A stretch of DNA of 64,000 bases from Candidatus Doudnabacteria bacterium (GTDB lineage: Bacteria > Patescibacteriota > Doudnabacteria > UBA920). Shown in pieces: positions 19,599-37,085 of the stretch (its first letter is position 1; each line of letters opens with the position of its first letter). Where the stretch lies: positions 133,515 through 197,514 of the forward strand of contig PLYC01000010.1 of NCBI GenBank assembly GCA_003151625.1, given 5' to 3'. A program made the position numbers and the translations under genes. Under the pieces are notes generated by a model, which had not been told where the DNA came from, did no database searches, and was given only the letters and a program-made list of their open reading frames with translations.

Positions 19599-19673
19599 TG
19601 GGGTGTCGCCAAGCGGTAAGGCAGGGGCCTTTGAAGCCCCCATTCGTAGGTCCGAATCCTACCACCCCAGCCA
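19599..19673 (+). tRNA. tRNA-Gln (anticodon UUG)
   Basis: Manual cloverleaf: acceptor TGGGGTG/CACCCCA (U1-A72 as in E. coli tRNA-Gln), D-arm GCC-AAGCGGTAA-GGC, anticodon arm GGGGC-CTTTGAA-GCCCC, T-arm GTAGG-TCCGAAT-CCTAC, G73, CCA. Confidence 0.8.
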
Positions 19674-19909
19674 TTAGTAAATAATTTATAAAGCATTGGC
19701 GTCGCTCGTCTCGGCTTCGCCGAGCCGAAGTCGGACCAAGCAGCCCGTCTCGGCCGAGGCTATCCGAATTAGCCGAGCCGAGGTCGGATAAGGCAGGGGC
19801 CTTTGAAGCCCCCATTCGTAGGTTCGAATCCTACCGCCCCAGCCAACAACTCTCTCATAATACCGGAGACCGAAGAGTATCAGCGTTTCAAGAGACAGTC
19901 AATGATTTT

Positions 19910-23055: not shown

Positions 23056-23508
23056 TCAGTTGATGGTGACGGGACGCAGCTCGAGGGGTTCCTGTTCGTA
23101 GGGAACGAAGAACGCTTTGGATCCCGCCACAGCTACGCCCTTTCCGGAAGTCCCGTCCGCCAAGGCGAGACCGATGTTGCAGCGGCAGCCTAATCCTGGA
23201 GTGGTGATGAGTTCGTGATACTGCTGAAAGGCCTCGCTCCACCTCTCCAGGACGATATGGTGACCGTGGTCGTCAGTGTAGACATTGACACCCTCTTCGT
23301 GCAGGAGGCGGAGAACGGCGTTCTCCACAACCTTGCCCGAGAAGGGCTTGTCCGCATTGATTACCAGGTGAAACAGGCGGCCGGTCATCCGGGCGCCGTT
23401 CATGATGATGGTTTCTGGGTTGCCGACAACGAACTTCGTATCCGGTTGGCCGGATCGTAAATGCATTGCCAGCGTTTCCGCAATCTGCCCTTGACGTTCT
23501 GTGAACAT
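23056..23508 (-). CDS. Hypothetical 150-aa protein of the high-GC island
   Basis: High-GC codon usage continuous with the island. No confident family; motifs VVGNPE and TDDHGHH noted. Confidence 0.45.
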   Translation of the reverse strand: MFTERQGQIAETLAMHLRSGQPDTKFVVGNPETIIMNGARMTGRLFHLVINADKPFSGKVVENAVLRLLHEEGVNVYTDDHGHHIVLERWSEAFQQYHELITTPGLGCRCNIGLALADGTSGKGVAVAGSKAFFVPYEQEPLELRPVTIN

Positions 23509-23544
23509 ACACGCTCCTTGGTTGGTTGTCGGTAACTTTCGGTA

Positions 23545-23754
23545 TTAGGCCGAGTGAACGCAGGTGCCGTCGGAATTGTAGGCATAAACTTCAATGCCGA
23601 CGCCGCGGTTGGTGTGAGCGATGTCATCGATCTCCCGTTGGCTTAACGGTGCGTTGTAGTCGCCAATAAAGAAATCTTCGCCATGCTCGTGCCCGATGAA
23701 ACGGATCTTACCATCCGGAGCCTTGGGCTCCGTATCTGACTTTCGGAATAGCAT
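23545..23754 (-). CDS. Hypothetical 69-aa protein of the high-GC island
   Basis: ORF upstream of the 150-aa gene in the same transcription unit. An AT-rich promoter spacer precedes it. Confidence 0.35.
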   Translation of the reverse strand: MLFRKSDTEPKAPDGKIRFIGHEHGEDFFIGDYNAPLSQREIDDIAHTNRGVGIEVYAYNSDGTCVHSA

Positions 23755-23904
23755 GATTCCTCCCCCTTTGCAAATTTATATCGCACGTTTCAAAACATAT
23801 TTATAAACTCTGTGAACCGTAAAATAATGAAAATACTACTTACTGAGAAAATGATCTTGGTTTGAAATAATTATATACCTATTCAATAAATAAAAACAAC
23901 CTGA

Positions 23905-23945
23905 AAAAATCAACCCGGCGCGTCCTCCTTTGCGCCGGGCGTGGT
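23905..23945 (-). terminator. Terminator after HisRS-like paralog 1 (CCCGGCGC-loop-GCGCCGGG + T-run on the minus strand)
   Basis: Seen directly. Confidence 0.6.
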
Positions 23946-23959
23946 TGAAGAACAACAAC

Positions 23960-25285
23960 TTAAACCTCCTGGAGCACCTGCCCCAGGGCATTCCGGACAT
24001 CGGCCTCGAAAGCGGAGCGGCATTCGAGGGCGTGGGTGAGGGTGGCTTCTTTGCCGCTGACGCAGACCACCAACTGGCATCCGCGGAGTTTGGCCTGTTC
24101 TACCGCTCCCGCGGAGGAAAGCGGGTCGTAGCTCAGGTCAACGTTGATGCCAGCATTGCGAAGCTGCTGGGCGAATCGGAAAGCCATGGCTGTACTGTCG
24201 TTATTGCCGCAGTACGCTACCAGGACTTTATCCGGAAGGACAAGCTCGGATTTGAGCATGTCCAATTCCTTCATGACTGCAAGGATGCGGTCGAGGCCGA
24301 AGGCCATGCCGACCGCCGGTTCAGGCGGAGCGCCGAAAGCGCCCACCAGATTGTCGAATCGGCCACCGCCGAGTACCGCGCCGATTGGCACGCCGGGAAT
24401 CACTCCTTCCAGAATGAAACCGGTGTAATAGTCGGCGCCGCGAGCCAACGTAAGGTCGATTCTGACGTGAGATAGCACTTCGTCGGGCAGATAAGAGAAA
24501 ATCTCCCGGAGCTCAGCGATGCCGGTTAATCCGGCCGGCTGGTCGTGAAGATTGTCTTGAAGGTGTTGAAGCATGTCTTCGAGCGAGCCGGAAATAGCGA
24601 TGACGCCCATAATGCTTTCTATCAGGGCGCTGCCAACCCGGCGGCGTTTCAGGTCTTCGCGAATCCCTTCCAGGCCTGCCTTGGTCACCTTGTCGGCGTA
24701 ATCCATAGCGCGTTGCACCTTGAGGATGCCGTCTTTGCCGGTGATACCGGCGCGGGCAGCAATGGCCTGGATGATCATGCGATGATTGACGCGGATGACG
24801 AACTGCCGGAAACCGAGGTCGCAAAGGCCGCGGTATGCTACGGAGATAATATCAGCGTCAGCCAGAAGGCTGGAAGCGCCAATGATGTCCCCATCGCATT
24901 GCATAAACTCGCGGAAGTGCCCCTTGTCCGGTTTGTCATCGCGAAACACATAGCCGAACTGATACCGCTTGTAGGGGCGGGGCAGGTCGGGGTGCATGCT
25001 GGCTACGCGAGCCAGCGGTACCGTTAGGTCGTAGCGGAGAACGAGACGGTGTTTCTTGTTGTCTCCCAGGCGGAAGATGAGCTTCTCGCCCTCGCCGTGG
25101 TGGCCGTCAAATACGACCTCGTTCTCGATGGTGGGGGTATCGTGGGGAGTGAAACCGCTCTTCTCGTAGACAGAACGGAGAATACGGATAACGTAATCAC
25201 GCACCCGCATTCCAAGCCCCAGCTTGTCAGTAGTGCCCGGAGGGACGGCGTTCTTAAGCCGAGACCGGGTCTGTGGATGACCCAT
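23960..25285 (-). CDS. Divergent class-II HisRS-like paralog 1 (full length with anticodon-binding-like domain)
   Basis: Altered motif 2 RDDKPDKGHFREFMQCDGDIIG, histidine-binding ARGADYYTG, motif 3 LGGGRFDNL and a C-terminal alpha/beta ABD-like region. Confidence 0.8.
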   Translation of the reverse strand: MGHPQTRSRLKNAVPPGTTDKLGLGMRVRDYVIRILRSVYEKSGFTPHDTPTIENEVVFDGHHGEGEKLIFRLGDNKKHRLVLRYDLTVPLARVASMHPDLPRPYKRYQFGYVFRDDKPDKGHFREFMQCDGDIIGASSLLADADIISVAYRGLCDLGFRQFVIRVNHRMIIQAIAARAGITGKDGILKVQRAMDYADKVTKAGLEGIREDLKRRRVGSALIESIMGVIAISGSLEDMLQHLQDNLHDQPAGLTGIAELREIFSYLPDEVLSHVRIDLTLARGADYYTGFILEGVIPGVPIGAVLGGGRFDNLVGAFGAPPEPAVGMAFGLDRILAVMKELDMLKSELVLPDKVLVAYCGNNDSTAMAFRFAQQLRNAGINVDLSYDPLSSAGAVEQAKLRGCQLVVCVSGKEATLTHALECRSAFEADVRNALGQVLQEV

Positions 25286-26621
25286 TGTTTGCGCTCTCCT
25301 TGGCGCGGATGAGGCTAATAGCCTCTTTGGTGCTCACGTTGCTGGTTTGTCCTGTGGACATATCCTTGAGGGAAACATAGCCGCCGGCGACTTCGTCGTC
25401 GCCGATCACGATGATGAAAGGAATTCCCAGCCGGCTGGCGTAGGTTACCTTTTTTTTCAGCTTGGCATCATCGAAGTATACGGCCGTAGGTATGCCGCCT
25501 TCGCGCAACTCGGTAGCTGCCTGCAAAGGAACGCGGAGATCGGAAGTTTGCGGAATGACCAGCACTATAGCGGGCGTTGCGGATTTGGGAGTAATGATGC
25601 CCGCTTCGCGAAGCTGGTAAAACAGCCTGGTCAGGCCAATGGAAATTCCGACGCCGGGCAACTGTTTGTTGGTATAGTACCCAGCCAGGTCGTCGTAACG
25701 TCCGCCCGAACAGACACTGCCGATGCCGGGGTAGTCATTCAGCACCGTTTCGTACACGGTGCCCGTGTAATAGTCGAGGCCGCGGGCGATTGTCAGGTCA
25801 ATAGCGTAATTCTGCCCGGGAACCCCAAGCGCCGAGACGTAGGAAATTACCTTCTCCAATTCGTCGACGCCGGTATGGAAAGTGCCGTTGCTGATCTGCA
25901 TCTGCTTGAGCTGGGAGAGGATGGCGGCCGTGTCGCCTGTCAATCCGATGAACGCAAGAACTTCGCGCGCCGCATTGGGTGGCGCTCCTAGACCGGCCAA
26001 CTCCTGCTGAACTGCTTCCTGCCCGGCTTTCTCCAGCCTGTCGACCGAACGGAGGATGTCCGCGGCCTGGCTGGCAAGTCCGAGCGATTCGAAGAAGCCG
26101 TTCAGAATCTTGCGATTGTTGATTTTGATGGTGAAGCGGGAAAAGCCGAGCGCCGTAAAGGTTGCGTAGATGACGCTGGGAATTTCCGCGTCGTTTAGCA
26201 AACTCAAAGCGCCGTCGCCGATGATGTCGATGTCGCACTGGTAGAATTCCCGGAAACGGCCTCTCTGCGGCCGCTCTCCGCGGAACACTTTTCCGATGTG
26301 GTAGCGCCGGAAAGGAAACGCGAGGTCCGGATAGTGCTGCGCTACATAGCGGGCCAACGGAACCGTGAGATCAAACCTCAAGGCCAAATCGCTGTCGCCC
26401 TTGGTGAAGCGGTAAATCTGCTTTTCGGTCTCACCGCCCGCCTTGGCCAAAAGCACTTCGGCCAATTCGATGACGGGGGTATCTAGCGGAATGAACCCGA
26501 ACCGTTCATAGCTTTTCTGGATTACTCCCAACATGCCGTTGAACAGCATTTGGTCTGCCGGGAGCAGTTCCATAAAGCCGGAAAGGATCCGGGGGGTGAC
26601 TTTACTTGGATTGTTGTTCAT
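25254..26621 (-). CDS. Class-II HisRS-like paralog 2 (more canonical)
   Basis: Motif 2 FRGERPQRGRFREFYQCDIDIIG, ARGLDYYTG, CSGGRYDDL and ABD region AIVLVIP...IPFIIVIGDDE. Its 3' end overlaps paralog 1 by 32 nt. Confidence 0.8.
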   Translation of the reverse strand: MNNNPSKVTPRILSGFMELLPADQMLFNGMLGVIQKSYERFGFIPLDTPVIELAEVLLAKAGGETEKQIYRFTKGDSDLALRFDLTVPLARYVAQHYPDLAFPFRRYHIGKVFRGERPQRGRFREFYQCDIDIIGDGALSLLNDAEIPSVIYATFTALGFSRFTIKINNRKILNGFFESLGLASQAADILRSVDRLEKAGQEAVQQELAGLGAPPNAAREVLAFIGLTGDTAAILSQLKQMQISNGTFHTGVDELEKVISYVSALGVPGQNYAIDLTIARGLDYYTGTVYETVLNDYPGIGSVCSGGRYDDLAGYYTNKQLPGVGISIGLTRLFYQLREAGIITPKSATPAIVLVIPQTSDLRVPLQAATELREGGIPTAVYFDDAKLKKKVTYASRLGIPFIIVIGDDEVAGGYVSLKDMSTGQTSNVSTKEAISLIRAKESANNGSSTDPVSA

Positions 26622-26875
26622 AATATTTGATCAATCCTCCTGCATGGTACAAACTACGGAATGACTGGCTCCATAATTCTGCCAATCGATGGTAAAGAAC
26701 AAACAAGCTCATCCTTATTGCACGGATAAACTTATCGTATTACTATAAATCAATTTAGCTTATATTGTCAAGGAGATTGGGTTTGGCCAGAGAAGCCCCT
26801 GACAAAATTTTTTAACTTGATTTTATTGGATAAATAATATATATAAAAGTCGAGTGAACTGTAAAAAAAGATATC

Positions 26876-26920
26876 CGGGCAGCTCCTAAGAGGAACTGCC
26901 CGGAAGATAAAACCTTTGCC
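26876..26920 (-). terminator. Terminator after the MIO-lyase gene (CCGGGCAG...CTGCCCGG + T7 on the minus strand)
   Basis: Seen directly. Confidence 0.6.
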
Positions 26921-26933
26921 AAACGGCTCGGGT

Positions 26934-28589
26934 CTAAGTGGTCAACGCGTTGCAGGCTGACTGCATCAGACTTCCGTCTGCCAGCATGCCCTCGACTGCG
27001 TCCAACTCGGCCTTGAGATACCGGTCATCAAACCAGGTCTGGTGGCCTTTTGCCGTTTCCTTCTGGAATACGCCGCGGATGTGGCCGTAAGCCTCGCTCG
27101 TTCCGAGCCCGAGCTGCTGGAGGTTTTCCGGCAGCAAATGCTGAGTGAGGGTGATCCCTTGCGACGCCATGAACAGTTCGGCGGCAAGCACGCGACGGAT
27201 GATCGGCAGCATGGAGCGAACTTTGAGAGCGCTGTTCATTCCCATGCTCACCCAGTCTTCCTGGTCTGCCGAGGTCGTGATCGAATGAGTCGAGCAGGGA
27301 TTGGCCAGAAGCGCAATCTGATTCACCAAGGAGGCAACCCCATATTGCACGATCATCAGGCCGGTATTGGCCGTATTGGGACCGGCAAGATCCGCAGGCA
27401 AACCGTAGCTTAACCTGGGAGTAGTCAGAGCGAAACCTCGCCGGTCACTGGCGCCGGCAAGCGGCGTCAGGGCTATTGCGAGGTAATCCAGCGGCGCCGC
27501 CAAAGGCTGACCGTGAAAATTGCCGCCTGAAATGGCTATGTATTGCGCGCCGTTCTCATCATCCTCGAACACCAGAGGATTGTCGGTTGCCGAGTTGAGT
27601 TCGACTTCGAGAATCGATTCCAGATGAGAAAGTGCTTGGTATGCCGCCGCATGAATCTGGGGCGCACAGCGGAACGAGTAAGCGTCCTGAACGCGGGGAA
27701 CCTGCTTGCCGTGGCTAAACTTCTTCTGTTCGTCCGGAAAGGCTACGGATCTGGCTTCTTCCGTAATTCTCCTGGATCCTTCGGTAAACTTCCTGATGCG
27801 CGCCGCGGAATGAACCTGACCGGGTAATGGCCTGGCTTCATGGATGCGGGCATCGAAAGCGTTCTGTTCTCCGCGAATAGCCTCTAAAGACAAGGCCGTA
27901 GCGAGGTCGGCGGTTTCCAAGAGAATCCAGCCGTCCACTACCGCAAGACACGCAATTGCCGCAATGAAGTTGGCGCCGTTTGTCAGTGCCATGGCTTCTT
28001 TGGCCGCAAGCGTGAGGGGTTTGAGGCCGTGGTTTTCAAGAACTGTTCTGGCCGGTTGAATTTCGCCCGCCACGAACATTTGACCTTCCTCAAGGCCGAT
28101 TATGCCCGCGGACATGTGAGCCAAGGGAATTAAATCTCCCGAGGCGCCCACCGATCCGAACTCAGGGACTACCGGGGTAAGCCCCAAATTCAGGCAATCG
28201 CGGAGCCTTTCAATCAGGCAAGGTCGCACGCCGGAGTGACCCTTCAAAAAGTTGTTCAGCCGAACAAGCATGGCTGCTCGGGTGACTTCGGGTGAAAGCG
28301 GGTTCCCATAGCCGCAGCAATGGGCCGGGATATAACGCATCTGGTAATCGGACAGTTCGTCCGACGGCAACACTTGGTTCTTGCGGGAGCCACAGCCGGT
28401 ATTGACACCGTACATGATGTCTCCACGGATAGCGGCGGCTTCGAGTCCTTGACGGAAACGTTCGATTTTCGCAAACGTCTCGGGGTTGATCTGAACCTCG
28501 TGATGATGTCTGGCCACGGCTATAACCTGTTCAGTGGTTAAGCTGTGACCGTCTACCTCCACGATTCTCTGCGTAAGCATAGATTTCAC
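26934..28589 (-). CDS. MIO-dependent aromatic amino-acid ammonia-lyase/aminomutase family protein (HAL/PAL-like)
   Basis: Ala-Ser-Gly MIO triad in GSVGASGDLIPLAHM, plus YGVNTGCG and a selectivity-region A-H (IPAHCCGYG) resembling the HAL S-H. 551 aa. Confidence 0.85.
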   Translation of the reverse strand: MKSMLTQRIVEVDGHSLTTEQVIAVARHHHEVQINPETFAKIERFRQGLEAAAIRGDIMYGVNTGCGSRKNQVLPSDELSDYQMRYIPAHCCGYGNPLSPEVTRAAMLVRLNNFLKGHSGVRPCLIERLRDCLNLGLTPVVPEFGSVGASGDLIPLAHMSAGIIGLEEGQMFVAGEIQPARTVLENHGLKPLTLAAKEAMALTNGANFIAAIACLAVVDGWILLETADLATALSLEAIRGEQNAFDARIHEARPLPGQVHSAARIRKFTEGSRRITEEARSVAFPDEQKKFSHGKQVPRVQDAYSFRCAPQIHAAAYQALSHLESILEVELNSATDNPLVFEDDENGAQYIAISGGNFHGQPLAAPLDYLAIALTPLAGASDRRGFALTTPRLSYGLPADLAGPNTANTGLMIVQYGVASLVNQIALLANPCSTHSITTSADQEDWVSMGMNSALKVRSMLPIIRRVLAAELFMASQGITLTQHLLPENLQQLGLGTSEAYGHIRGVFQKETAKGHQTWFDDRYLKAELDAVEGMLADGSLMQSACNALTT

Positions 28590-28774: not shown

Positions 28775-29374
28775 TTATCTACGCTTACCGACTTCGTCCG
28801 TAATATTTTTAAAAGAGATATCTTTTTCTGCCAGTAAAACGAACAGGTGGTAAATTAAATCCACAGTTTCCTCAATTAATCTGGGTTTGGTTTGTTTTTG
28901 CGCTGCGTGTACAACTTCGAGTGCTTCCTCGGCCACTTTTAGGGAAATTTTGTCCAAACCAGCTTTGAATAAAGAGGCTGTATAGGATTTTTTTGGCATC
29001 TTTAATTTTCGCTCCTGGATTACGCTGAACAACTCCAATAATTTGTTGGGGTCAAAATTTTCTTTAAAACAGGAATAAGCACCCGTATGGCACGTCGGAC
29101 CTACCGGTTTGGCTTTAATTAGTATTGCGTCGTTATCACAGTCTAACTTTATATCAACAAGGTTTAAGATGTTCTTGCTGGTTTCGCCTTTCATCCAGAG
29201 CCGCTGTTTGCTTCGGCTATAAAACCAAACTTTTTTTGTCTTTAAAGTTTTGGCGAAAGATTCCTTATTCATATAACCCAGCATCAAAACAGCGGACGTG
29301 TCGGCATCTTGAATGACGGCCGGTACCAGACCTTGACTTTTTGTCCAATTTATTTTTTTGATTAAATTTTTCAT
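28775..29374 (-). CDS. hisIE: Bifunctional phosphoribosyl-AMP cyclohydrolase / phosphoribosyl-ATP pyrophosphatase
   Basis: N-terminal HisI ([18 protein letters not shown]) and C-terminal HisE helices. Confidence 0.85.
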
Positions 29375-30855
29375 AAGCGTATTGGTATGTTATTAGTTGA
29401 TAAATAATTTTTAACCTGGCTGACGCTAAATTGTCCATAATGGAACAAACTTGCTACCAATGCCGCGTCTGCCTTGCCCTCGGTAAAAGCCAATTTTAAA
29501 TCTTCCAAAGATCCGGCGCCGCCTGATGCGATAACAGGGATTTTTACCGCTTCCGAAACTTTTTTCAAAAGCTCTAAATCATAACCTGATTTTGTGCCGT
29601 CCTTATCCATAGAGGTCAATAAAATTTCTCCCGCTCCTCTTTTTTCAGCTTCTTTGGCCCAGTCGATTGCGTTTAATGAAGTTTCATCGCGGCCGCCCTT
29701 TAGAAATACTTTATATACGCCATCCTTCTTTTTTGCGTCAATTGCTACCACCACGCATTGCCGGCCAAAAGCAAGCGCTGCTTCGGAAATAAATTCGGGG
29801 TTAAGCACGGCCGTGGTATTAATGGAAATTTTGTCAGCGCCTAATTGCAATAATTTGCGAATATCATCAACGGTCTTAATTCCGCCCCCAACGGTGAAAG
29901 GTATAAAGACCTCTTTGGCCACCTGGGCTACCATGTCAAATAACGTCTGCCGATTCTCATGCGACGCGGTAATGTCAAGAAAGACCAGCTCGTCAGCGCC
30001 TTCTTCAGAATACCTGCGACCCAAGGCTACCGGGTCGCCCGCATCCCTCAGGTTTACAAAAGATACGCCCTTAACCACCCTGCCGTCTTTAACGTCCAAG
30101 CAGGGAATAATTCGTTTGGTTAAGTTTGATACAGGTGTTTGAAAATTTAAAGCCTCAGCCAACGTTAGCCTATTTTCATACAAAGCTTTGCCCAAAATGG
30201 CGCCAAAGGCACCCAATGTATTTATTTTTTTCAGAGATTTTAAATCGGAAATTCCTCCGGACGCTATAACATTAAACCCCAAATTTATCAGTTCTTTTAA
30301 AACTATAAAATTTGGCTCGGTTAGGCTGCCGTCTTTTTCCACGTCCGTAAACAAGATTTCGGTTATCCCAAGGGTTTTAAGTTCTTTGGCAAAATCCAAA
30401 TAATTTTTATCAACGGTTTCCTGCCACCCTTTTATCGCAATTTTGCCTTTTTTAATTTCCAGCGCTACTACTATTCGCTTGCTGCCGAACTCTTTAATTA
30501 AAGATGATAATAGGCCAAAATCCGTTAATGCTTTGGTGCCTAAAACAGCACGCCGCACGCCGGAATTTAAATATTTTTGCGCGGTACTTATATCGCGGAT
30601 CCCTCCGCCGACTTCTATGGGAATTTTGACAGCCTTACAAATTTTGGTAATCAGTTCCTGGTTGACCGGCACTCCTGTTTTAGCCGCATCCAAATCAATA
30701 ATATGAAGCATGGCCGCCCCTTGCCGCTCAAAGTCTTGGGCCACGCCTAAAGGATCGGAAGAATAAATTTTTTTCGTGGAAAATTCTCCCTTAGTTAACC
30801 TTACACATTTGCCGTCAATAATGTCTATCGCGGGAATAATTAACATAAATCGCAA
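29371..30855 (-). CDS. hisAF: Fused HisA-HisF protein (ProFAR isomerase + IGP synthase cyclase subunit)
   Basis: The first ~240 aa are HisA-like ([27 protein letters not shown]). The last ~250 aa are HisF-like ([44 protein letters not shown]). Continuous 494-aa ORF. Confidence 0.85.
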
Positions 30856-31430
30856 AAGTTAGATAATAATTTCATTCCCCATTGTCCGGATTTTTCCGGA
30901 TGGAATTGAGTAGCGTAAAAGTTATCTTTCTGTGCGATGGCCGCAAAATCAACATCATAAGCGGTTTGACCGATAACGTATTTTAAGTCCGTTGCCAAAT
31001 AATACGAGTGCACAAAGTAAAAGAAACTACCTGTCGGAATTTCTGTCGTAAGCTTGGATTCTTTAATTAGCTCAACTTTATTCCAGCCCATATGCGGGAC
31101 TTTTAAGTCTGTTTGGAATCTTACTACCCGGCCGGGAATTATAGATAAACATTCGGTGTTATCTTCTTCCGAAAATTCCGCCATCAACTGCATGCCTAGA
31201 CATATCCCTAAAGTAGGAACTTTAAGTTTAGGTAAAACTTTGGCAAAGCCGCTTCCTATTAGTTTCTCCATAGCGCTTCCCGCCGCGCCAACCCCGGGCA
31301 AAATAACCTTATCAAAAGCAGCCAAGCTTTCCGGTTTGTTTACAATCTCAAAAGACTTGCCAAGCGAAGTTAACGCGTTGGCTACGCTTTGTAAGTTACT
31401 CGCGCCATAATCTATAATCGCGATTTTCAT
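30840..31430 (-). CDS. hisH: Imidazole glycerol phosphate synthase glutaminase subunit
   Basis: [22 protein letters not shown] (catalytic Cys) and VHSYY. Confidence 0.9.
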
Positions 31431-32489
31431 TTATAATGACCCTTTCGTGGAAGGCAGTATATCCTTTTGCCGGAAGTCCTTATCAACCGCCATACGCAAA
31501 GCCTTGGCAAAAGCTTTGAAGATTGCCTCTATTTTGTGATGTTCATTCCGGCTATATTTAACATTAATGTGAATATTGGCCTTCATTGTTTCGGCAACTG
31601 AACGGAAAAAGTGTTCTACCATTTCCGTTGGCAGGTCTCCGACCTTCTCTCTTTTAAAATCACAGTTAAACACTAAATACGGTCTGCCGCCCAAGTCTAT
31701 CGCAACCTCCACAAGCGTATCGTCCATTGGCAATAAGAATCCATAACGTTTTATGCCTTTTCTTTCGCCCAATGCCTGTAATAGAGTCTGCCCCAATGTT
31801 AGCCCCACATCTTCTATTGTGTGGTGGTCATCTATCTGTAAATCGCCCTTGGCTTTAATTGTTAAATCAATCAGCGAGTGTTTGGAAAGCTGTTCCAGCA
31901 TGTGGTTGAAAAAATTGATTCCCGTATCAACGCTAAAATTCCCTTGTCCATCCAGATTGCACAAAATAAAAACTTCGGTTTCTTTTGTGCCGCGCTCCAA
32001 GCTTGCGATTCTCGGAAATATTGAATTGGTTTGCATGCCAAAAAACTTCACTCCGATATTTTTGGCAAATCCCGCATCGCTTTCCCTGTCTCCGACCATA
32101 AAAGATTTTTCAAAGTCTATAAGTTCTTTTTGCAAGAAACTTTTCAATAATCCGGCTTTCGGCTTCCTGCAATTGCATTTATCTTTAGCAAAATGAGGGC
32201 AGGTAAATATTCCGTAAAATTCTACCCCTTCCTTTTTTAGCAGTTTCAAAAAAGCATTTTGTACTATTTCAAAATCTTTTTTTGGAAAGGACATTGTACC
32301 CAGGCCGTCCTGATTGGAAACCATAACCAGTTTATAGTTTTGATTTGTCAGATTCTGTAGAACTAAAATTACCCCAGGCAAAATTTTAAGTTTGTCCAGG
32401 CTGTCTACCTGCTCGGTAACCGGCGGTTCAATAATTAGTGTGCCGTCCCTGTCCAAAAAGGCAATTTTTAACAGTTGTCCGGAATTCAT
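31431..32489 (-). CDS. hisB: Bifunctional histidinol-phosphatase / imidazoleglycerol-phosphate dehydratase
   Basis: N-terminal HAD motif FLDRDGTL. C-terminal IGPD motifs (DDHHTIED, RNEHHKIEA). Confidence 0.9.
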   Translation of the reverse strand: MNSGQLLKIAFLDRDGTLIIEPPVTEQVDSLDKLKILPGVILVLQNLTNQNYKLVMVSNQDGLGTMSFPKKDFEIVQNAFLKLLKKEGVEFYGIFTCPHFAKDKCNCRKPKAGLLKSFLQKELIDFEKSFMVGDRESDAGFAKNIGVKFFGMQTNSIFPRIASLERGTKETEVFILCNLDGQGNFSVDTGINFFNHMLEQLSKHSLIDLTIKAKGDLQIDDHHTIEDVGLTLGQTLLQALGERKGIKRYGFLLPMDDTLVEVAIDLGGRPYLVFNCDFKREKVGDLPTEMVEHFFRSVAETMKANIHINVKYSRNEHHKIEAIFKAFAKALRMAVDKDFRQKDILPSTKGSL

Positions 32490-33526
32490 ATAATTGATGA
32501 TAAATTTTTAATTAATAATTGATTTTGCTCCGGTGTGCCAATGGAAATCCTAATGCAGTTTTCGAGTTTGGGTTTGGAATTAAAATCTCTTACGATAATT
32601 CCAAAATCTTCGGCTAATTTTTTCGCTATCAGCGATGCGTTAGGATAACGAACCAGTAAAAAATTGGCTTCGCTGGGAAAAACTTTAAATCCTAATTTAG
32701 TTAATTCCAAAGCCAATTTTTCTCTTTCCCTGAGTATTAAGGTTTTAAATTCCAACATCTTTGGGTATTGCTGCAAGGCCTGTATAGCTATCTTGCTGGA
32801 AACACGGTTTAAATTATATGGCGGCTTAATTTTGTTTAAATATTCAATAGGAGCCTCCTGCGCTACGGCATAACCTACCCGAATACCGGCTAATCCCCAG
32901 GCTTTGGAAAAAGTTCTAAGTATAATCAAATTTTCCAAACTTGATATTTTGCCGATTAAAGACGGCTTTGAAGCAAACTCAACGTAAGCCTCATCAACCA
33001 CTACAATGCCGCGGAAATTGCCGCAAATCTTTTCCAATTCTTCCGGCTTAATTAAAGTTCCGGTAGGGTTGTTTGGGGAGCAACAAAAAATAATCTTTGT
33101 TTTGCTGTTTATTTGGGAAAGCAGGTTTGGAACATCCACTTGGAAATCTGAAGTCAAAGAAATATTTTTTACTGCCACCCCGGCAACTTCGGCCGCAACT
33201 TTGTACATCCCGTATGTGGGTTCCATTATTATAATTTCTTCGTCTGGCTCTACAAAAAGACGAATAAGCAAATCTATGGCCTCGTCCGAACCGTTACCCA
33301 CAAAAATGTTTTTTTCCGAAATTCCCAAAAATTTTCCCAATGCTTTGCGCAAATCAAGGGAGTAGGGATCGGGATAACGGTTAAGTTCGTTGTCGATTGA
33401 TTCGTTAATGACACTGCCAAGCGAGTTTTCGTTGGCGTCCATAAAGACGCCTTTTTGATAAAGGCTGCGGGCCGAACTATAAGGTTTAAAGCCTCTTAAA
33501 TTGGAACGTATTAAATCGGTAATCAT
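32486..33526 (-). CDS. hisC: Histidinol-phosphate aminotransferase
   Basis: Class-II aminotransferase with GSDEAIDLL and the PLP-Lys region TFSKAWGLAGIRVGY. Confidence 0.9.
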   Translation of the reverse strand: MITDLIRSNLRGFKPYSSARSLYQKGVFMDANENSLGSVINESIDNELNRYPDPYSLDLRKALGKFLGISEKNIFVGNGSDEAIDLLIRLFVEPDEEIIIMEPTYGMYKVAAEVAGVAVKNISLTSDFQVDVPNLLSQINSKTKIIFCCSPNNPTGTLIKPEELEKICGNFRGIVVVDEAYVEFASKPSLIGKISSLENLIILRTFSKAWGLAGIRVGYAVAQEAPIEYLNKIKPPYNLNRVSSKIAIQALQQYPKMLEFKTLILREREKLALELTKLGFKVFPSEANFLLVRYPNASLIAKKLAEDFGIIVRDFNSKPKLENCIRISIGTPEQNQLLIKNLSSII

Positions 33527-34818
33527 AAATTTTTCTTGAATCTTATACTTACGGCATTTTTGTGGGCATCAAGGCCTTCTTTTGCAGCCAGGACTTCAAC
33601 CGTGGTTCTTAAATTTTTAATTCCTTCTTTGGTGACTTGTTGAATTTGCATTTTCTTTCCAAAAGATTCTACGGAAAGCGCCGAGAACATTTTAGCATAA
33701 CCGGAGGTAGGCAAGGTGTGATTACTGCCTGTGGCGTAATCTCCCAAAGGCTCGCTGGAATAATTTCCCAAAAATACCGAACCCGCGTTGTTTATTCTTT
33801 TCAGTATGGCATTCTCGTTCTTACAAACTATTTCCAAGTGCTCGGGAGCATAATCGTTAATTAAATCACAAGCTTCCGTTATGGTTTTTGTGATAATAAT
33901 AAAGCTGTTTTTTAAAGACTGCCGCACAATCTGCAACCGGAAAAGTTGCTCGGCCTGTTTTAAAACTTGATCGTAAACCTGTTTTGCCAAAGTTTCGGAT
34001 AAAGTAACCAAAATCGCCTGAGAGTCTTCGCCGTGTTCTAACTGCGAAAGCAGATCCGCGGCAATCCAATCCGGGTCAGCGCTTTCGTCCGCTAAGGCTA
34101 AAACCTCGGAAGGGCCAGCCGGCATATCTATATCCACCTCTCCATATACCATCATTTTTGCAGTGGTAACGTATTGATTCCCGGGACCAAAAATTTTTGA
34201 TACTTTAGGTATGGACTCTGTACCGTAAGCCATGGCCGCAACAGCCTGTGCCCCGCCTACTTTAAAAATTTTTGATATACCGCACAAATCAGCTGCTATC
34301 AGTACCGCGCTTGGAACCTTTCCTTCTTTGTTCGGAGGCACGCAAAGCACAATTTCTTTACAACCGGCAATTTTTGCGGGAATGGCTAACATTAAAACCG
34401 TGGAAGGATAAGCCGCCTTTCCGCCGGGAATATAAAGGCCAACCTTTTCAATCGGGCGAAATTCCCGCCAGATTTGGACGCCTTTGGCGGTTGTGACTTT
34501 TTGTTCCTTAATTTGCACGTTGCTTTTGTGAAATTTTTCAATGTTAGTTTTAGCTACTTTTAGCGCCTTAACCAATTCCTTACTTTCTTGTTTATAAGCC
34601 GTAGCTATTTCTTGTTTAGAGACCGCTAGGACTTTTAAATCCGCCCCTTCAAATTTTTTAGTAAAAGCAAAAAGCGCTTTGTCTTTATTTTTTCGGACAT
34701 CGCCAATTATTTTACTTACTACCGCCTCTACATTTGTTTTTTTGCTTTGCCTTTCCCGGATCAAATTCAGTATAGTTTGAAAGGAATATTGCTTTGTAGA
34801 TATAATTTTCATAAACAT
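33523..34818 (-). CDS. hisD: Histidinol dehydrogenase
   Basis: Typical HisD length and motifs ([22 protein letters not shown]). Confidence 0.9.
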
Positions 34819-35438
34819 TAATTAATACCGCACTTGGATAAGAATTTTGCTTTGGCCTGCTTATTAATCGGGCTTTCGATTAATACGGCTTGGGATTCTA
34901 ATATCGTGAATAACGGCACCAAATTATGCGCTTTTAAAGTAGTGCCGGTTTGCACTATATCGCAAATAGCGTCTGCCAGGTTCAAATCTGGCGTTATTTC
35001 CACGGAACCGGAAATGGGAATTATGGCCGCCTCAAGCTTCTCTTTTTTTAAATAGTCGGTAAGCAGTTTTGGATAGGAAGTGGCGATTCTTTCTCCTTCC
35101 AAATCCTTGGAGGTTTTTATAACGGAGTCTGCCGGAGCCGCTATCATCAGCCTGCATTTGCCAAAATCAAACTTTTTTAATATTTTCGGTTCAAATTCTT
35201 TTTCCGCGAGGACATTTTGTCCCACAATGCCAAAATCCGCCACGCCCCGGCTCACGTATTCCGGAATATCATCGTCCCTAAGATATAATACATCAAGGTC
35301 AAAATTTTGACAGGGCAGAATTAGCGAATGCCCGTTTGGAGCAAAAGTCAGCCCGCAAGAAACAAGGAAGTCCATACTGCCCTGATTCAGCCGGCCGCTT
35401 TTTTGAACGGCAATTCTTAGTCTTTCCGGAGTTTTCAT
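34818..35438 (-). CDS. hisG: ATP phosphoribosyltransferase, short form
   Basis: 206 aa short HisG (LRIAVQKSGRL). Overlaps the upstream HisRS gene by ATGA. Confidence 0.9.
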   Translation of the reverse strand: MKTPERLRIAVQKSGRLNQGSMDFLVSCGLTFAPNGHSLILPCQNFDLDVLYLRDDDIPEYVSRGVADFGIVGQNVLAEKEFEPKILKKFDFGKCRLMIAAPADSVIKTSKDLEGERIATSYPKLLTDYLKKEKLEAAIIPISGSVEITPDLNLADAICDIVQTGTTLKAHNLVPLFTILESQAVLIESPINKQAKAKFLSKCGIN

Positions 35439-36727
35439 AATGAGCTATATCCTTTAAAGTAATTAATAATCTGGTCCTGCGGTATAGTTTTTTGCTTGCC
35501 GGTCTTCATCATTTTAATGGTTACCTCGCCGCGTTCCTTTTCGTCCGATCCGCACATAACAACAAAAGGTATGCTTTTTTTGTCCGCGTATTTTAATTGT
35601 TTCGCAATTTTGGCCGGTTCAAAATAAATTTCCGCTTTTAACCCAGCCGTCTGTATATCACCCAAAATTTTAAGTGAATCCGGCAAGGTGTCCGCGTCAA
35701 AATATGCTACTAATGCCTGCGAATTTAAGCTTATTTCGTCAAGCAGTTTAAGTTGTTCCATCGCTACAATAATACGGTCAAATCCAAAGGCAACGCCCAC
35801 CCCGCTGAATTTTTCAGGGCAAAAAAGTGAGCACAGGTCGTCATACCTGCCTCCGGCGCAAACGGCTCCAATGTCCACTTCCGGTATGTAAACTTCAAAA
35901 ATAACGCCGGTATAATAATCCAGACCCCGCGCCAGACTGGGATCAAAAACCAAAACTTCATCCGGAATTCCAAACCCCTTTGCAATTTTTAAAAACTCCT
36001 GGATTTCAGTAATGTTATATTTTTGAAATAAGTTTAATCTTTCGTTTGAACTGCCTTCTACGCACACTAATTCCAATAATTTTGAAACCTCGGAGTCAGA
36101 AGCTAAAGACTTAAGCTCCTGTTTGATTTCGGCAGGGCTTAACTTATCCATTTTATCCAATATCCTAATCATCCCTGCCTGATTCTCGGCCGGGATTTTT
36201 AGGTCGTTCAAAATACTGTTAATCAATCTGCGGCTGTTAAATTTAATTTTAAACTTGGAAAAGCCCAAGGTAGTAAAAACTTCGGCCATTACTTTGGCGA
36301 TTTCGGCTTCAGCCACCAGGCTCTGTGTGCCGATAATATCTATGTCGCACTGGTAAAATTCCCTATATCTGCCTTTTGCCGGCCTGTCAGCCCGCCAAAC
36401 TCTTCCAATCTGGTACCGCTTAAAAGGCATTGGTAAAGTTTTGTAGTTGGCGGCCACCACTCTGGCAAAGGGGACGGTTTGATCATAACGCAGGCAAATA
36501 TCTCTGTCGCCATTATCCTTAAAACGGTAAACTAGTTTGGATCCCTCTTCGCCATACTTGCCTAATATTGTTTCCGCGTATTCAATTGCCGGAGTTTCGA
36601 TGGCATCGTAGCCAAACTTTGTAAACACAGTTTTAATTTTTTCCAAAACATAATCTCTCTTTGCCATTTGTTCGGGCAAAAAGTCCCTTGTTCCCTGTAA
36701 TATTTTTGGTTCAATAAATTGGTTCAT
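35435..36727 (-). CDS. hisS: Histidyl-tRNA synthetase (catalytically intact), translationally coupled to short hisG; possible dual HisS/HisZ role
   Basis: Motif 2 WRADRPAKGRYREFYQCDIDIIG, ARGLDYYTG, motif 3 GGRYDDL and a complete anticodon-binding domain. Confidence 0.85.
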   Translation of the reverse strand: MNQFIEPKILQGTRDFLPEQMAKRDYVLEKIKTVFTKFGYDAIETPAIEYAETILGKYGEEGSKLVYRFKDNGDRDICLRYDQTVPFARVVAANYKTLPMPFKRYQIGRVWRADRPAKGRYREFYQCDIDIIGTQSLVAEAEIAKVMAEVFTTLGFSKFKIKFNSRRLINSILNDLKIPAENQAGMIRILDKMDKLSPAEIKQELKSLASDSEVSKLLELVCVEGSSNERLNLFQKYNITEIQEFLKIAKGFGIPDEVLVFDPSLARGLDYYTGVIFEVYIPEVDIGAVCAGGRYDDLCSLFCPEKFSGVGVAFGFDRIIVAMEQLKLLDEISLNSQALVAYFDADTLPDSLKILGDIQTAGLKAEIYFEPAKIAKQLKYADKKSIPFVVMCGSDEKERGEVTIKMMKTGKQKTIPQDQIINYFKGYSSL

Positions 36728-36785: not shown

Positions 36786-37085
36786 TTAATTCGTCTTAAC
36801 GCCGAGACGTTTAAGCACCAAACCATACCCACCCATGCCATGATGCAGCCAGTGGGCAACACGAGTGATAGTAGCGGTGCTGGAACCGGTTTGTTTGCAA
36901 ATTTCTCTATAAGATTCCTGATTGGAAACTTTCTTGGCTACCTGAAAACGTTCTGCCATAGCTTCAAGCTCGGCAATCGTGCATAAATCTCTAAAGAATT
37001 GTTTGCATTCTTTGGTATTTTTGAGTTTAAGAATACCTAAAAACAACTCCTCAAATTCTTTGGTATTTAACAACTTGTCTTCCAT
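36786..37085 (-). CDS. TrpR-like YerC/YecD-family protein
   Basis: FFRDLCTIAELEAMAERFQVAK and TGSSTATITRV match the YerC/YecD family. Confidence 0.7.
   Translation of the reverse strand: MEDKLLNTKEFEELFLGILKLKNTKECKQFFRDLCTIAELEAMAERFQVAKKVSNQESYREICKQTGSSTATITRVAHWLHHGMGGYGLVLKRLGVKTN

What the first reader, a model, noticed from the sequence alone, without database searches (positions are those of the whole stretch)
29371..30855. Natural HisA-HisF fusion protein
One 494-aa ORF concatenates a complete HisA (ProFAR isomerase) and a complete HisF (cyclase) (beta/alpha)8 barrel. These two barrels are classic examples of paralogs derived by gene duplication. A head-to-tail fusion of the two consecutive pathway steps is unusual. 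HisH is encoded next door, overlapping by 16 nt.
Basis: partly seen in the sequence, partly recalled or inferred. Interest (0 to 1): 0.6.

Follow-up and report, generated by a model that had tools for sequence, protein, structure and literature searches.

The report
Natural HisA-HisF two-barrel fusion enzyme
One gene in a compact histidine operon really does encode two consecutive histidine-pathway enzymes (HisA and HisF) on a single chain; the fusion is genuine, is conserved across a lineage of uncultured bacteria and has barely been described, but it arose in an ordinary way, by loss of the stop codon between neighbouring genes.

Summary
Window 29371..30846 (-) is one uninterrupted ORF of 491 aa from the ATG (494 aa from an upstream TTG). 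Its N-terminal half passes the curated HisA model and its C-terminal half passes the curated HisF model. It sits in a tightly overlapping operon: hisR-like, HisRS-like, hisG, D, C, B(NB), H, AF, IE.

It is not a sequencing artefact. Identical or 97% identical proteins occur in independent assemblies. At least 118 protein clusters (54-96% identity, about 490 aa) share the architecture, a similar short linker and the same operon.

All catalytic and HisH-docking residues are conserved. The one change is Asp to Glu at the beta5 acid of HisA, which is specific to this subclade. AlphaFold gives two confident barrels (pLDDT 93) but no confident mutual orientation (pTM 0.58).

About 20 other fused clusters have unrelated linkers, and some add HisH and/or HisIE. 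Two Prevotella MAGs also carry fusions. The fusion has therefore arisen repeatedly, and it makes up roughly 0.5% of HisA/HisF-like clusters.

The reviews of his-gene fusions that I could read do not list it.

Verdict: a real bifunctional ProFAR isomerase / IGP-synthase cyclase subunit. It is a new variant of a known kind and of moderate interest.

The parts
29371..30846 (-). hisAF fused gene: 491 codons plus stop, starting at ATG 30846. An alternative TTG start at 30855 gives 494 aa.
   Evidence: ORF list. Two His_biosynth domains. 100% identical 491-aa database gene call P0001.
30145..30846 (-). HisA (ProFAR isomerase) barrel, residues 1-234.
   Evidence: TIGR00007 scores 262 bits against a cut-off of 229. 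The AF2 model has 8 strand/helix units at pLDDT above 90. Residues D8, W141 and D172 align to S. enterica HisA D7, W145 and D176.
30457..30459 (-). Codon for Glu130, at the position of the beta5 acid of HisA (S. enterica D129).
   Evidence: Alignment to PDB 5AHE. Among 120 fused sequences the column holds D in 65 and E in 55. Nearly all relatives at 67% identity or more have E.
30124..30144 (-). Linker FQTPVSN, residues 235-241. It replaces the hisA stop codon and the hisF start codon.
   Evidence: Junction codons. Lowest pLDDT block, 72. Shared family motif P-x-S-[NG]-LTKR, with the same length in 83 of 120 sequences.
29374..30123 (-). HisF (cyclase subunit of imidazole glycerol phosphate synthase) barrel, residues 242-491.
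   Evidence: TIGR00735 scores 384 bits against a cut-off of 294.5. About 56-57% identity to T. maritima HisF structures. R5, D11, E46, D98, K99, Q123, D130 and E167 (T. maritima numbering) are all present, and seven of the eight are invariant in 120 relatives.
30840..31430 (-). hisH (glutaminase subunit), separate gene, overlapping the hisAF ATG by 7 nt.
   Evidence: ORF and translation with GICLGMQ and FHPEKS motifs. Pfam GATase on the identical gene in L001.
28775..29374 (-). hisIE (bifunctional), whose start overlaps the hisAF stop by 4 nt.
   Evidence: NF002747 HisIE scores 268 bits against a cut-off of 187.
31431..32489 (-). hisB (hisNB fusion: histidinol-phosphatase plus IGP dehydratase).
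   Evidence: NF003937 scores 469.5 bits against a cut-off of 443.
32486..35438 (-). hisC (32486..33526), hisD (33523..34818) and short-form hisG (34818..35438). Each overlaps its neighbour by 1-4 nt.
   Evidence: ORFs. Pfam annotations of the identical genes in L001. hisG TIGR00070 scores 186 bits.
35435..36727 (-). HisRS-like gene at the head of the operon, in the position usually held by hisZ before a short hisG.
   Evidence: TIGR00442 hisS scores 404 bits (cut-off 287). The hisZ model scores 215, below its cut-off of 272. The same placement is seen in L085.
36786..37085 (-). YerC/YecD TrpR-related protein, a candidate operon regulator.
   Evidence: TIGR02531 scores 97.7 bits. A Trp_repressor-family gene sits in the same position in L082, L084 and L085.

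Best explanation
The gene encodes a bifunctional enzyme. The N-terminal (beta/alpha)8 barrel is HisA, which isomerises ProFAR to PRFAR. The C-terminal (beta/alpha)8 barrel is HisF, which takes PRFAR plus ammonia from the separately encoded HisH and makes imidazole glycerol phosphate and AICAR.

The fusion arose in a hisBHAF(IE) operon when the hisA stop codon and the hisF start codon were lost. This left a linker of about 7 residues. It then became fixed in a lineage of uncultured bacteria whose relatives are labelled Peregrinibacteria, Gracilibacteria or Saccharibacteria, that is Patescibacteria/CPR.

I infer that the two barrels work as independent catalytic units on a short tether, with HisH still docking on the N-terminal face of the HisF barrel. 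The likely benefit is obligatory 1:1 co-expression of two consecutive enzymes and release of the intermediate PRFAR close to its consumer. A sealed channel is not required.

Shown here: architecture, conservation, catalytic residues and operon context. Inferred: both activities, HisH docking, and the proximity and stoichiometry advantage.
For: Architecture and family assignment:
- Both halves pass curated equivalog cut-offs.
- The ORF is continuous with no internal start codon at the junction, and the hisF Met is absent in all 101 aligned family members.

Catalytic and partner residues:
- In HisA, D172 and W141 are invariant and D8 is near-invariant (116 of 120). The beta5 acid is always D or E. 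These roles are mapped on S. enterica HisA via and PMC9088769.
- In HisF, D11 and D130, the gate residues R5/E46/K99/E167, and Q123 are invariant. The HisH-contact residue D98 is near-invariant (114 of 120).
- hisH is intact next door.

Conservation:
- Both halves are under similar purifying conservation: mean identity to the window protein is 57% for the HisA half and 67% for the HisF half, against 28% for the linker.
- The same operon order (hisG, D, C, B, H, AF, IE) occurs in relatives at 56-59% identity.
- At least 118 fused clusters were found.

Structure:
- The AF2 model has pLDDT 93.4 with two 8-fold barrels. Its pTM of 0.58 and a linker pLDDT of about 72 give no confident fixed interface.

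Route of origin:
- In many genomes hisA and hisF are separated only by one in-frame stop and 0-15 nt, so a single mutation can give such a fusion.
Against: - No activity data exist.
- The beta5 acid of HisA is Glu rather than Asp in this subclade. D129N in S. enterica HisA is among substitutions whose loss of activity that paper describes (PMC9088769), and the effect of D-to-E is untested.
- The linker enters the HisF barrel at residue 2, next to gate residue R5 on the face where HisH docks. Steric compatibility is inferred only. The inference rests on the yeast HisH-HisF fusion (PDB 1JVN) and on natural HisH-HisA-HisF fusions.
- Only 64 kb of the genome was seen, so extra stand-alone hisA or hisF copies cannot be excluded.
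- The near-constant linker length in the family could mean a defined inter-barrel geometry that AF2 did not capture.
Confidence: 0.78

Rival explanations
1. Dedicated channelling machine. The two barrels and HisH form one rigid complex with a defined HisA-HisF interface. That interface hands PRFAR directly to HisF and couples HisA turnover to allosteric activation of the HisH glutaminase.
For: The linker is short and has the same length in 83 of 120 family members, with semi-conserved Pro238 and Ser240. The two enzymes are consecutive. Natural fusions that also include HisH exist. Reviews invoke channelling or fixed-ratio expression for other his fusions (PMC1963479).
Against: AF2 gives pTM 0.58 despite pLDDT 93, so there is no confident inter-domain packing. 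Independent fusions have linkers from about 0 to about 75 residues with unrelated sequences, which argues against one required geometry. By general (beta/alpha)8-barrel topology (my inference), the tether joins the N-terminal faces of the barrels while both active sites lie on the C-terminal faces.
Confidence: 0.15
2. One barrel is catalytically dead. For example, the HisA half could be impaired by Asp-to-Glu at the beta5 acid and serve only as a structural or regulatory appendage of HisF, with true HisA activity supplied elsewhere.
For: Glu130 replaces an Asp whose D129N substitution in S. enterica HisA is among those linked to loss of activity. The rest of the genome was not seen.
Against: The change is carboxylate to carboxylate. 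All other HisA catalytic and binding residues (D8, W141, D172, the Gly-rich phosphate sites) are invariant or nearly so across the family, including the Glu-bearing subclade. The HisA half passes the equivalog cut-off. No other hisA lies in the operon.
Confidence: 0.04
3. Artefact: a sequencing or assembly error, or an alternative genetic code, hides a stop between two separate genes.
For: Many genomes have only one in-frame stop between hisA and hisF, so a single base error could mimic a fusion. An NCBI record annotates only a 266-aa HisF inside a fused relative (P0122).
Against: No stop codon of any code is present at the junction. An identical protein is found on 3 contigs, including an independent assembly. 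The 97%-identical L002 and at least 118 clusters down to 54% identity share the continuous ORF. The HisF initiator Met is replaced in every member.
Confidence: 0.01
4. The C-terminal barrel is a WbuZ/HisF2-type amidotransferase cyclase used for glycan modification, or the N-terminal barrel is a PriA-type dual HisA/TrpF isomerase. In either case this would not be a plain histidine enzyme.
For: The C-half scores 297.4 bits on WbuZ, just under its cut-off of 299.7. The N-half gives a partial hit to the hisA-trpF model.
Against: The hisF model scores much higher (384 bits) and is above its cut-off. The hisA-trpF model scores 158 against a cut-off of 306. The gene lies inside a complete his operon, between hisH and hisIE.
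Confidence: 0.02

Closest known systems
HIS7 / HisHF (fused glutaminase-cyclase of yeast, plants and a few prokaryotes; PDB 1JVN)
   Same: A HisF barrel carries another histidine-pathway domain fused to its N-terminus. It is a single chain for functionally coupled steps. It appears as a 555-aa PDB hit to the HisF half and is discussed in PMC1963479.
   Different: There the partner is HisH, the physical partner of HisF, and an ammonia tunnel joins the two sites. Here the partner is HisA, the preceding enzyme and a paralogue of HisF, and HisH stays separate.
hisIE and hisNB fusions of bacterial his operons
   Same: These are fusions of operon neighbours in the same pathway, and both are present in this very operon. 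The rationale proposed in the literature is fixed stoichiometry and/or channelling (PMC1963479).
   Different: They are long recognised and widespread. The hisA+hisF combination is absent from the fusion lists I could read. The 2023 review names seven fusion-prone his genes, and hisA is not among them.
HisA/F-HisIE fusions reported in DPANN and unclassified archaeal MAGs (PMC11237513)
   Same: These are multi-domain chains that contain HisA/HisF-type barrels together with other his enzymes. Bacterial counterparts were seen here: P0112 (HisA-HisF-HisIE, 689 aa, found in two JGI samples) and others.
   Different: That paper describes four metagenomic assemblies and does not resolve a HisA+HisF two-barrel unit as such. 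The window protein is the plain two-barrel form and is conserved in a large bacterial family.
E. coli TrpC-TrpF (IGPS:PRAI), two (beta/alpha)8 barrels on one chain (recalled from memory, PDB 1PII; not checked here)
   Same: Two TIM barrels that catalyse consecutive steps of an amino-acid pathway sit on one polypeptide. One of them is an Amadori-rearrangement isomerase analogous to HisA.
   Different: The pathway and domain order differ. The two Trp barrels are not close paralogues of each other in the way HisA and HisF are.
Engineered HisAF chimeras made from half-barrels of HisA and HisF (recalled from memory; not checked here)
   Same: They combine HisA and HisF sequence in one chain.
   Different: Those are single artificial barrels built from two half-barrels. 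The window protein is two complete natural barrels in tandem.

Membership tests
HisA (ProFAR isomerase, TIGR00007) | Profile score above the curated equivalog cut-off, over the full length of the model. | tested here: met
   The N-half alone scores 262 bits against a cut-off of 228.95, covering model positions 1-230 of 231.
HisA (ProFAR isomerase, TIGR00007) | Catalytic Asp on beta1, catalytic Asp on beta6, and the stacking Trp (S. enterica D7, D176, W145). | tested here: met
   D8, D172 and W141 align to these positions. D172 and W141 are invariant and D8 is near-invariant in the family. Roles are taken from PMC9088769.
HisA (ProFAR isomerase, TIGR00007) | Acidic residue on beta5 (S. enterica D129, T. 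maritima D127). | tested here: inconclusive
   The window has Glu130. Among 120 fused sequences the column holds D in 65 and E in 55. The carboxylate is kept, but the effect of D-to-E is not known.
HisA (ProFAR isomerase, TIGR00007) | (beta/alpha)8-barrel fold. | tested here: met
   The AF2 model of residues 2-234 has alternating strands and helices, with block pLDDT of 89-98.
HisA (ProFAR isomerase, TIGR00007) | ProFAR to PRFAR isomerase activity. | not testable with these tools
   Needs an enzyme assay or complementation of a delta-hisA strain.
HisF (cyclase subunit of IGP synthase, TIGR00735) | Profile score above the curated cut-off. | tested here: met
   The C-half alone scores 384 bits against a cut-off of 294.55, covering model positions 2-254 of 254.
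HisF (cyclase subunit of IGP synthase, TIGR00735) | Catalytic D11 and D130; ammonia-gate residues R5, E46, K99 and E167; HisH-contact residues D98 and Q123 (T. maritima numbering, roles from my own knowledge). | tested here: met
   The numbering carries over one-to-one in the alignment to T. maritima HisF. All eight residues are present. Seven are invariant and D98 is 114 of 120.
HisF (cyclase subunit of IGP synthase, TIGR00735) | A partner glutaminase HisH is encoded and intact. | tested here: met
   A 196-aa hisH lies immediately upstream, with the nucleophile motif GICLGMQ and the FHPEKS motif. Pfam finds GATase in the identical gene.
HisF (cyclase subunit of IGP synthase, TIGR00735) | HisH can dock on the HisF barrel despite the N-terminal HisA extension. 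| not testable with these tools
   No complex prediction was available. Compatibility is inferred from the HisH-HisF fusion 1JVN and from natural HisH-HisA-HisF chains.
Recognised multifunctional his-gene fusions (hisIE, hisNB, hisHF/HIS7, HIS4) | Two or more his enzymes in one ORF, conserved across taxa rather than a one-off. | tested here: met
   At least 118 clusters at 90% identity share the architecture. The operon context is conserved.
Recognised multifunctional his-gene fusions (hisIE, hisNB, hisHF/HIS7, HIS4) | The combination is among those already catalogued. | tested here: not met
   It is absent from PMC1963479, PMC10138114, PMC8305728 and PMC7284861. Full-text searches for 'HisA-HisF fusion' and 'hisAF' found no description of a natural fusion. 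Only open-access literature was searched.
PriA (dual HisA/TrpF isomerase, TIGR01919) | Profile score above the cut-off. | tested here: not met
   158 bits against a cut-off of 306.45.
WbuZ / HisF2 glycan-amidation cyclases (TIGR03572, NF038364) | Profile score above the cut-off and better than hisF, with a glycan gene context. | tested here: not met
   The scores are 297.4 (cut-off 299.7) and 247.5 (cut-off 310), both below the hisF score of 384. The context is a his operon.

The most novel reading that the evidence does not exclude
The fused chain plus HisH forms a defined three-domain histidine 'mini-metabolon'. In it the HisA barrel is held against the HisF barrel, the intermediate PRFAR is passed on without equilibrating with the cytosol, and HisA turnover is coupled to the PRFAR-triggered allosteric activation of the HisH glutaminase. 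The recurrent natural fusions (HisA-HisF, HisH-HisA-HisF, HisA-HisF-HisIE, HisH-HisA-HisF-HisIE) would then be Rosetta-stone evidence for a HisH/A/F(/IE) complex in ordinary bacteria as well, as has been suspected for the hisBHAF core.
Probability: 0.15. Interest if true: 0.6.

Novelty: new variant of a known kind. Interest (0 to 1): 0.4.

Why it matters
HisA and HisF are the textbook pair of paralogous (beta/alpha)8 barrels produced by gene duplication, and histidine biosynthesis is the model pathway for studying gene fusion. The fusion catalogues I could read do not include hisA among the fusion-prone his genes.

A natural HisA-HisF chain that is conserved and has arisen repeatedly fills that gap. 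It gives comparative support to the idea that the hisBHAF core enzymes act in physical proximity. It also offers a ready-made construct for testing whether PRFAR is channelled and whether an N-terminal load on HisF affects HisH docking and allostery.

Practically, annotation pipelines label these proteins as just 'HisF' or 'HisA', or split them. Pathway reconstructions for these uncultured bacteria can therefore wrongly score one step as missing.

Tried and rejected
- Foldseek against afdb50 was tried in order to find UniProt two-barrel entries and their organisms. The library was unavailable.
- Foldseek and phmmer against PDB found only one-barrel matches, so no solved HisA-HisF chain exists to compare with.
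- A neighbour-joining tree of HisF domains with Fitch parsimony was built to count independent fusion events. I rejected it as a count. HisF is too conserved, because unfused sequences lie as close to the family as family members lie to each other. Truncated or mis-called proteins also scored as 'unfused'. Linker comparison was used instead.
- I computed the fraction of genomes with hisA and hisF in the same frame. All 77 were in-frame, which reflects how the locus finder ranks single-segment tblastn matches. It is not usable as a frequency.
- Rfam gathering-threshold and tRNA scans gave no T-box or his leader near the operon.
- Taxonomy stayed approximate. Only submitter labels were available: Peregrinibacteria, Gracilibacteria and 'Saccharibacteria'. 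Cluster look-ups gave few names, and Pfam on ten other window genes gave no marker.
- No complex prediction with HisH was attempted. The tool predicts single chains and accepts only window proteins or homologous-protein results, and the natural HisH-HisA-HisF protein (P0124) came from a different search.
Full report
OBSERVATION

The DNA across the proposed junction reads [25 protein letters not shown]. It has no stop codon and no in-frame ATG or GTG. Pfam finds two full-length His_biosynth domains with a whole-protein E-value of 6.5e-164.

Scanned separately against NCBIfam, the N-terminal 238 aa score 262 bits on the HisA equivalog TIGR00007 (cut-off 229). The C-terminal 253 aa score 384 bits on the HisF model TIGR00735 (cut-off 294.5). 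The PriA-type hisA-trpF model and the WbuZ/HisF2 models stay below their cut-offs.

The probable start is the ATG at 30846. That gives 491 aa beginning MLIIPAIDI, identical to the database gene call P0001 and to the family consensus. With that start the overlap with hisH is 7 nt (ATGTTAA) rather than 16 nt. The stop overlaps the hisIE start by 4 nt.

NOT AN ARTEFACT

The identical protein is carried by three contigs, among them an independent ENA assembly with the same neighbours (L001). A MAG whose DNA is 92.9% identical over the operon has the same continuous ORF, with 97% protein identity (L002).

The word-indexed protein search returned 120 best hits. At least 118 of them are about 490 aa, cover 97-100% of the query and have 54-96% identity. 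Every aligned family member lacks the HisF initiator Met; position 241 is mostly N or G, and never M.

ANATOMY

AlphaFold2, run with a 101-sequence alignment, gives mean pLDDT 93.4. The model has two eight-fold strand/helix barrels, at residues 2-234 and 244-491. The block containing the linker has the second-lowest confidence (72). The pTM is only 0.58, so the barrels are confident but their mutual placement is not. All PDB matches, by sequence and by fold, cover one barrel only. No two-barrel HisA-HisF chain has been solved.

In the HisF half, numbering carries over one-to-one from T. maritima HisF. The following are all present, and seven of the eight are invariant in 120 fused sequences, D98 being 114 of 120. 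The roles are from my own knowledge of the T. maritima enzyme.
- Catalytic D11 and D130.
- Gate residues R5, E46, K99 and E167.
- HisH-facing D98 and Q123.

In the HisA half, D8, W141 and D172 align with S. enterica D7, W145 and D176. D172 and W141 are invariant and D8 is near-invariant. PMC9088769 names D176 as the catalytic aspartate and W145 as the stacking tryptophan.

The one deviation is Glu130, where S. enterica has D129. Across the 120 fused sequences the column holds D in 65 and E in 55. E is found in nearly all relatives at 67% identity or more, so it is a substitution fixed in this subclade.

Mean identity of family members to the window protein is 57% for the HisA half, 67% for the HisF half and 28% for the linker. 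Both halves therefore look constrained.

CONTEXT

The gene sits in a minus-strand operon in which every junction abuts or overlaps by 1-7 nt:
- a YerC/TrpR-like gene (36786..37085);
- a HisRS-like gene (35435..36727);
- short-form hisG;
- hisD;
- hisC;
- bifunctional hisB (hisNB);
- hisH;
- hisAF;
- bifunctional hisIE.

Eleven enzymatic functions are thus carried by eight ORFs.

Relatives at 56-59% identity keep the same order, from the TrpR-like gene through hisG to hisH, hisAF and hisIE (L082, L084, L085). The lineage shows further fusions:
- a HisC plus HAD-phosphatase gene in L082;
- a 689-aa HisA-HisF-HisIE gene found in two separate JGI samples (L085, L086).

The only organism labels available are submitter names. 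They are Candidatus Peregrinibacteria (KKQ68170.1, 59% identity) and Gracilibacteria for a member of the same cluster, and 'uncultured Candidatus Saccharibacteria' for L002. All three are Patescibacteria/CPR labels. I could not place the window more precisely.

DISTRIBUTION AND ORIGIN

I searched 1.84 billion cluster representatives at 50% identity. About 22 of the 150 best-scoring proteins carry HisA followed by HisF on one chain, against about 4,500 representatives with E <= 1e-30. The architecture is therefore rare, on the order of 0.5%.

Some of those chains are larger:
- HisH-HisA-HisF (P0124, P0139);
- HisH-HisA-HisF-HisIE (P0138, 933 aa, from three sources);
- HisA-HisF-HisIE (P0147);
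- a reversed HisF-HisA-HisI (P0153).

Two Prevotella MAGs also have fused genes, nested among Bacteroidales relatives with separate genes (L064, L066).

Within the window's family the linker has the same length in 83 of 120 sequences and a shared P-x-S-[NG]-LTKR motif. The other fused clusters have unrelated linkers of about 0 to 75 residues. This points to one origin within the family and several independent origins elsewhere.

The route is simple. Many genomes have hisA and hisF separated by a single in-frame stop and 0-15 nt. The frequency of that arrangement cannot be read from my sample, because the locus finder favoured in-frame cases.

MECHANISM

Best-supported reading: a bifunctional ProFAR isomerase / IGP-synthase cyclase subunit with two independent active sites on a short tether. 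HisH binds the HisF barrel as usual. Both activities and the HisH docking are inferred from conserved residues and context. Neither was shown here.

By general (beta/alpha)8-barrel topology, which is my inference, the tether joins the end of HisA helix 8 to the start of HisF strand 1. Both points lie on the N-terminal faces of their barrels. A side-by-side arrangement with both catalytic faces pointing the same way, and with HisH under the HisF barrel, is therefore plausible.

The likely selective value is obligatory 1:1 synthesis and proximity for the intermediate PRFAR. This matches the rationale given in the literature for other his fusions (PMC1963479). The 2023 review raises the idea that the hisBHAF core enzymes interact (PMC10138114).

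A rigid channelling complex is not excluded, since the family's linker length is nearly constant. It is not supported by the AF2 pTM or by the variable linkers of the independent fusions.

COMPARISON WITH WHAT IS KNOWN

The 2007 review of his-gene fusions lists five cases. Its 'hisA/hisF' entry is the ancient internal elongation of each gene, not a concatenation of the two. The 2023 review names seven fusion-prone his genes, and hisA is not among them. The 2020 and 2021 surveys from the same group do not mention such a fusion. Full-text searches for 'HisA-HisF fusion' and 'hisAF' found no description of a natural fusion. A 2024 survey of archaeal fusions mentions HisA/F fused to HisIE in four metagenomic assemblies.

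The proteins themselves are in public databases, labelled simply as HisF, 'cyclase' or HisA. One NCBI record annotates only a 266-aa HisF that starts inside the fused reading frame (P0122).

I therefore rate this as a new variant of a known kind, namely a fusion of operon neighbours in the his pathway. It is real and conserved but mechanistically unsurprising. The literature check covers only the open-access library.

SCORES

Interest is 0.4. It would interest people who work on the evolution of the his pathway or on the HisA/HisF barrels. It offers a natural construct for testing channelling and HisH allostery. It does not overturn anything.

Noticed in passing
window 23056-28589: GC-rich island (56-59% GC against about 41% around it) directly downstream of the his operon. 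It holds four minus-strand genes. The first is a MIO-type histidine-ammonia-lyase-like enzyme (26934..28589; hutH model 472 bits, below its cut-off of 539; it also hits tyrosine 2,3-aminomutase). Next come two HisRS-like genes (25254..26621 above the hisS cut-off, and 23960..25285 just below it, overlapping by 32 nt). The last is an unassigned 150-aa ORF. The island is present in the independent assembly L001 and in L002, so it is not a chimera. It looks like a horizontally acquired histidine-related cassette of unknown role.
   Followed up: partly
window 35435-36727: A third HisRS-like gene in 13 kb heads the his operon in front of a short-form hisG, where hisZ normally sits. It is full length, has an anticodon-binding domain, and passes the hisS cut-off (404 bits) but not the hisZ cut-off (215 against 272). 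It could be a HisS doubling as HisZ, or a HisZ that still looks like HisS. The same placement occurs in L085.
   Followed up: partly
window 36786-37085: A YerC/YecD TrpR-related gene lies immediately upstream of the operon. A Trp_repressor-family gene holds the same position in L082, L084 and L085. It is a candidate histidine-operon repressor, comparable to the HisR regulator named in the abstract of PMC9413887.
   Followed up: partly
window 30457-30459 (Glu130 of the fused protein): The beta5 acidic residue of HisA (S. enterica D129) is Glu in the window and in nearly all relatives at 67% identity or more. It is Asp in most of the more distant family members.
   Followed up: partly
L085 7001-9070 and L086 1940-4009: A 689-aa HisA-HisF-HisI-HisE gene (P0112, 56% identical to the window protein) occurs in two separate JGI metagenomes. 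This is the window's hisAF/hisIE 4-nt overlap turned into a further fusion.
   Followed up: partly
proteins P0124, P0139, P0138, P0147, P0153 (no loci fetched): Still larger or rearranged natural chains exist: HisH-HisA-HisF (707 and 784 aa), HisH-HisA-HisF-HisIE (933 aa, from Logan, JGI and NCBI), HisA-HisF-HisIE (773 aa) and a reversed HisF-HisA-HisI (626 aa).
   Followed up: partly
L082 5328-6824: A relative's his operon encodes a 498-aa HisC aminotransferase fused to a HAD/PNK3P-type phosphatase, with a separate 200-aa IGP dehydratase. This is a different way of attaching the histidinol-phosphatase from the hisNB fusion in the window.
   Followed up: no
L064 6549-8033 and L066 1000-2517: Two Prevotella MAGs carry hisA-hisF fusions with linkers unrelated to each other and to the window's family. 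Neighbouring Bacteroidales genomes have a stop codon at that point. These could be independent fusions or MAG errors; I did not verify which.
   Followed up: partly
protein P0122 (NCBI MFA6550285.1): An NCBI record annotates only a 266-aa 'HisF'. It starts at a Met inside the HisA C-terminus of a protein that is otherwise a member of the fused cluster P0068. Annotation pipelines can split or mislabel this fusion.
   Followed up: no
L002 10027-11106: The 92.9%-identical relative has about 1 kb of extra AT-rich sequence (33% GC) between hisIE and the lyase gene. The window lacks it.
   Followed up: no
window 19776-19834: A partial tRNA-like Rfam match (35.5 bits, model positions 9-63) lies about 100 nt after tRNA-Gln (19599..19673). 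ARAGORN does not call it. It may be a tRNA fragment or a degenerate copy.
   Followed up: no
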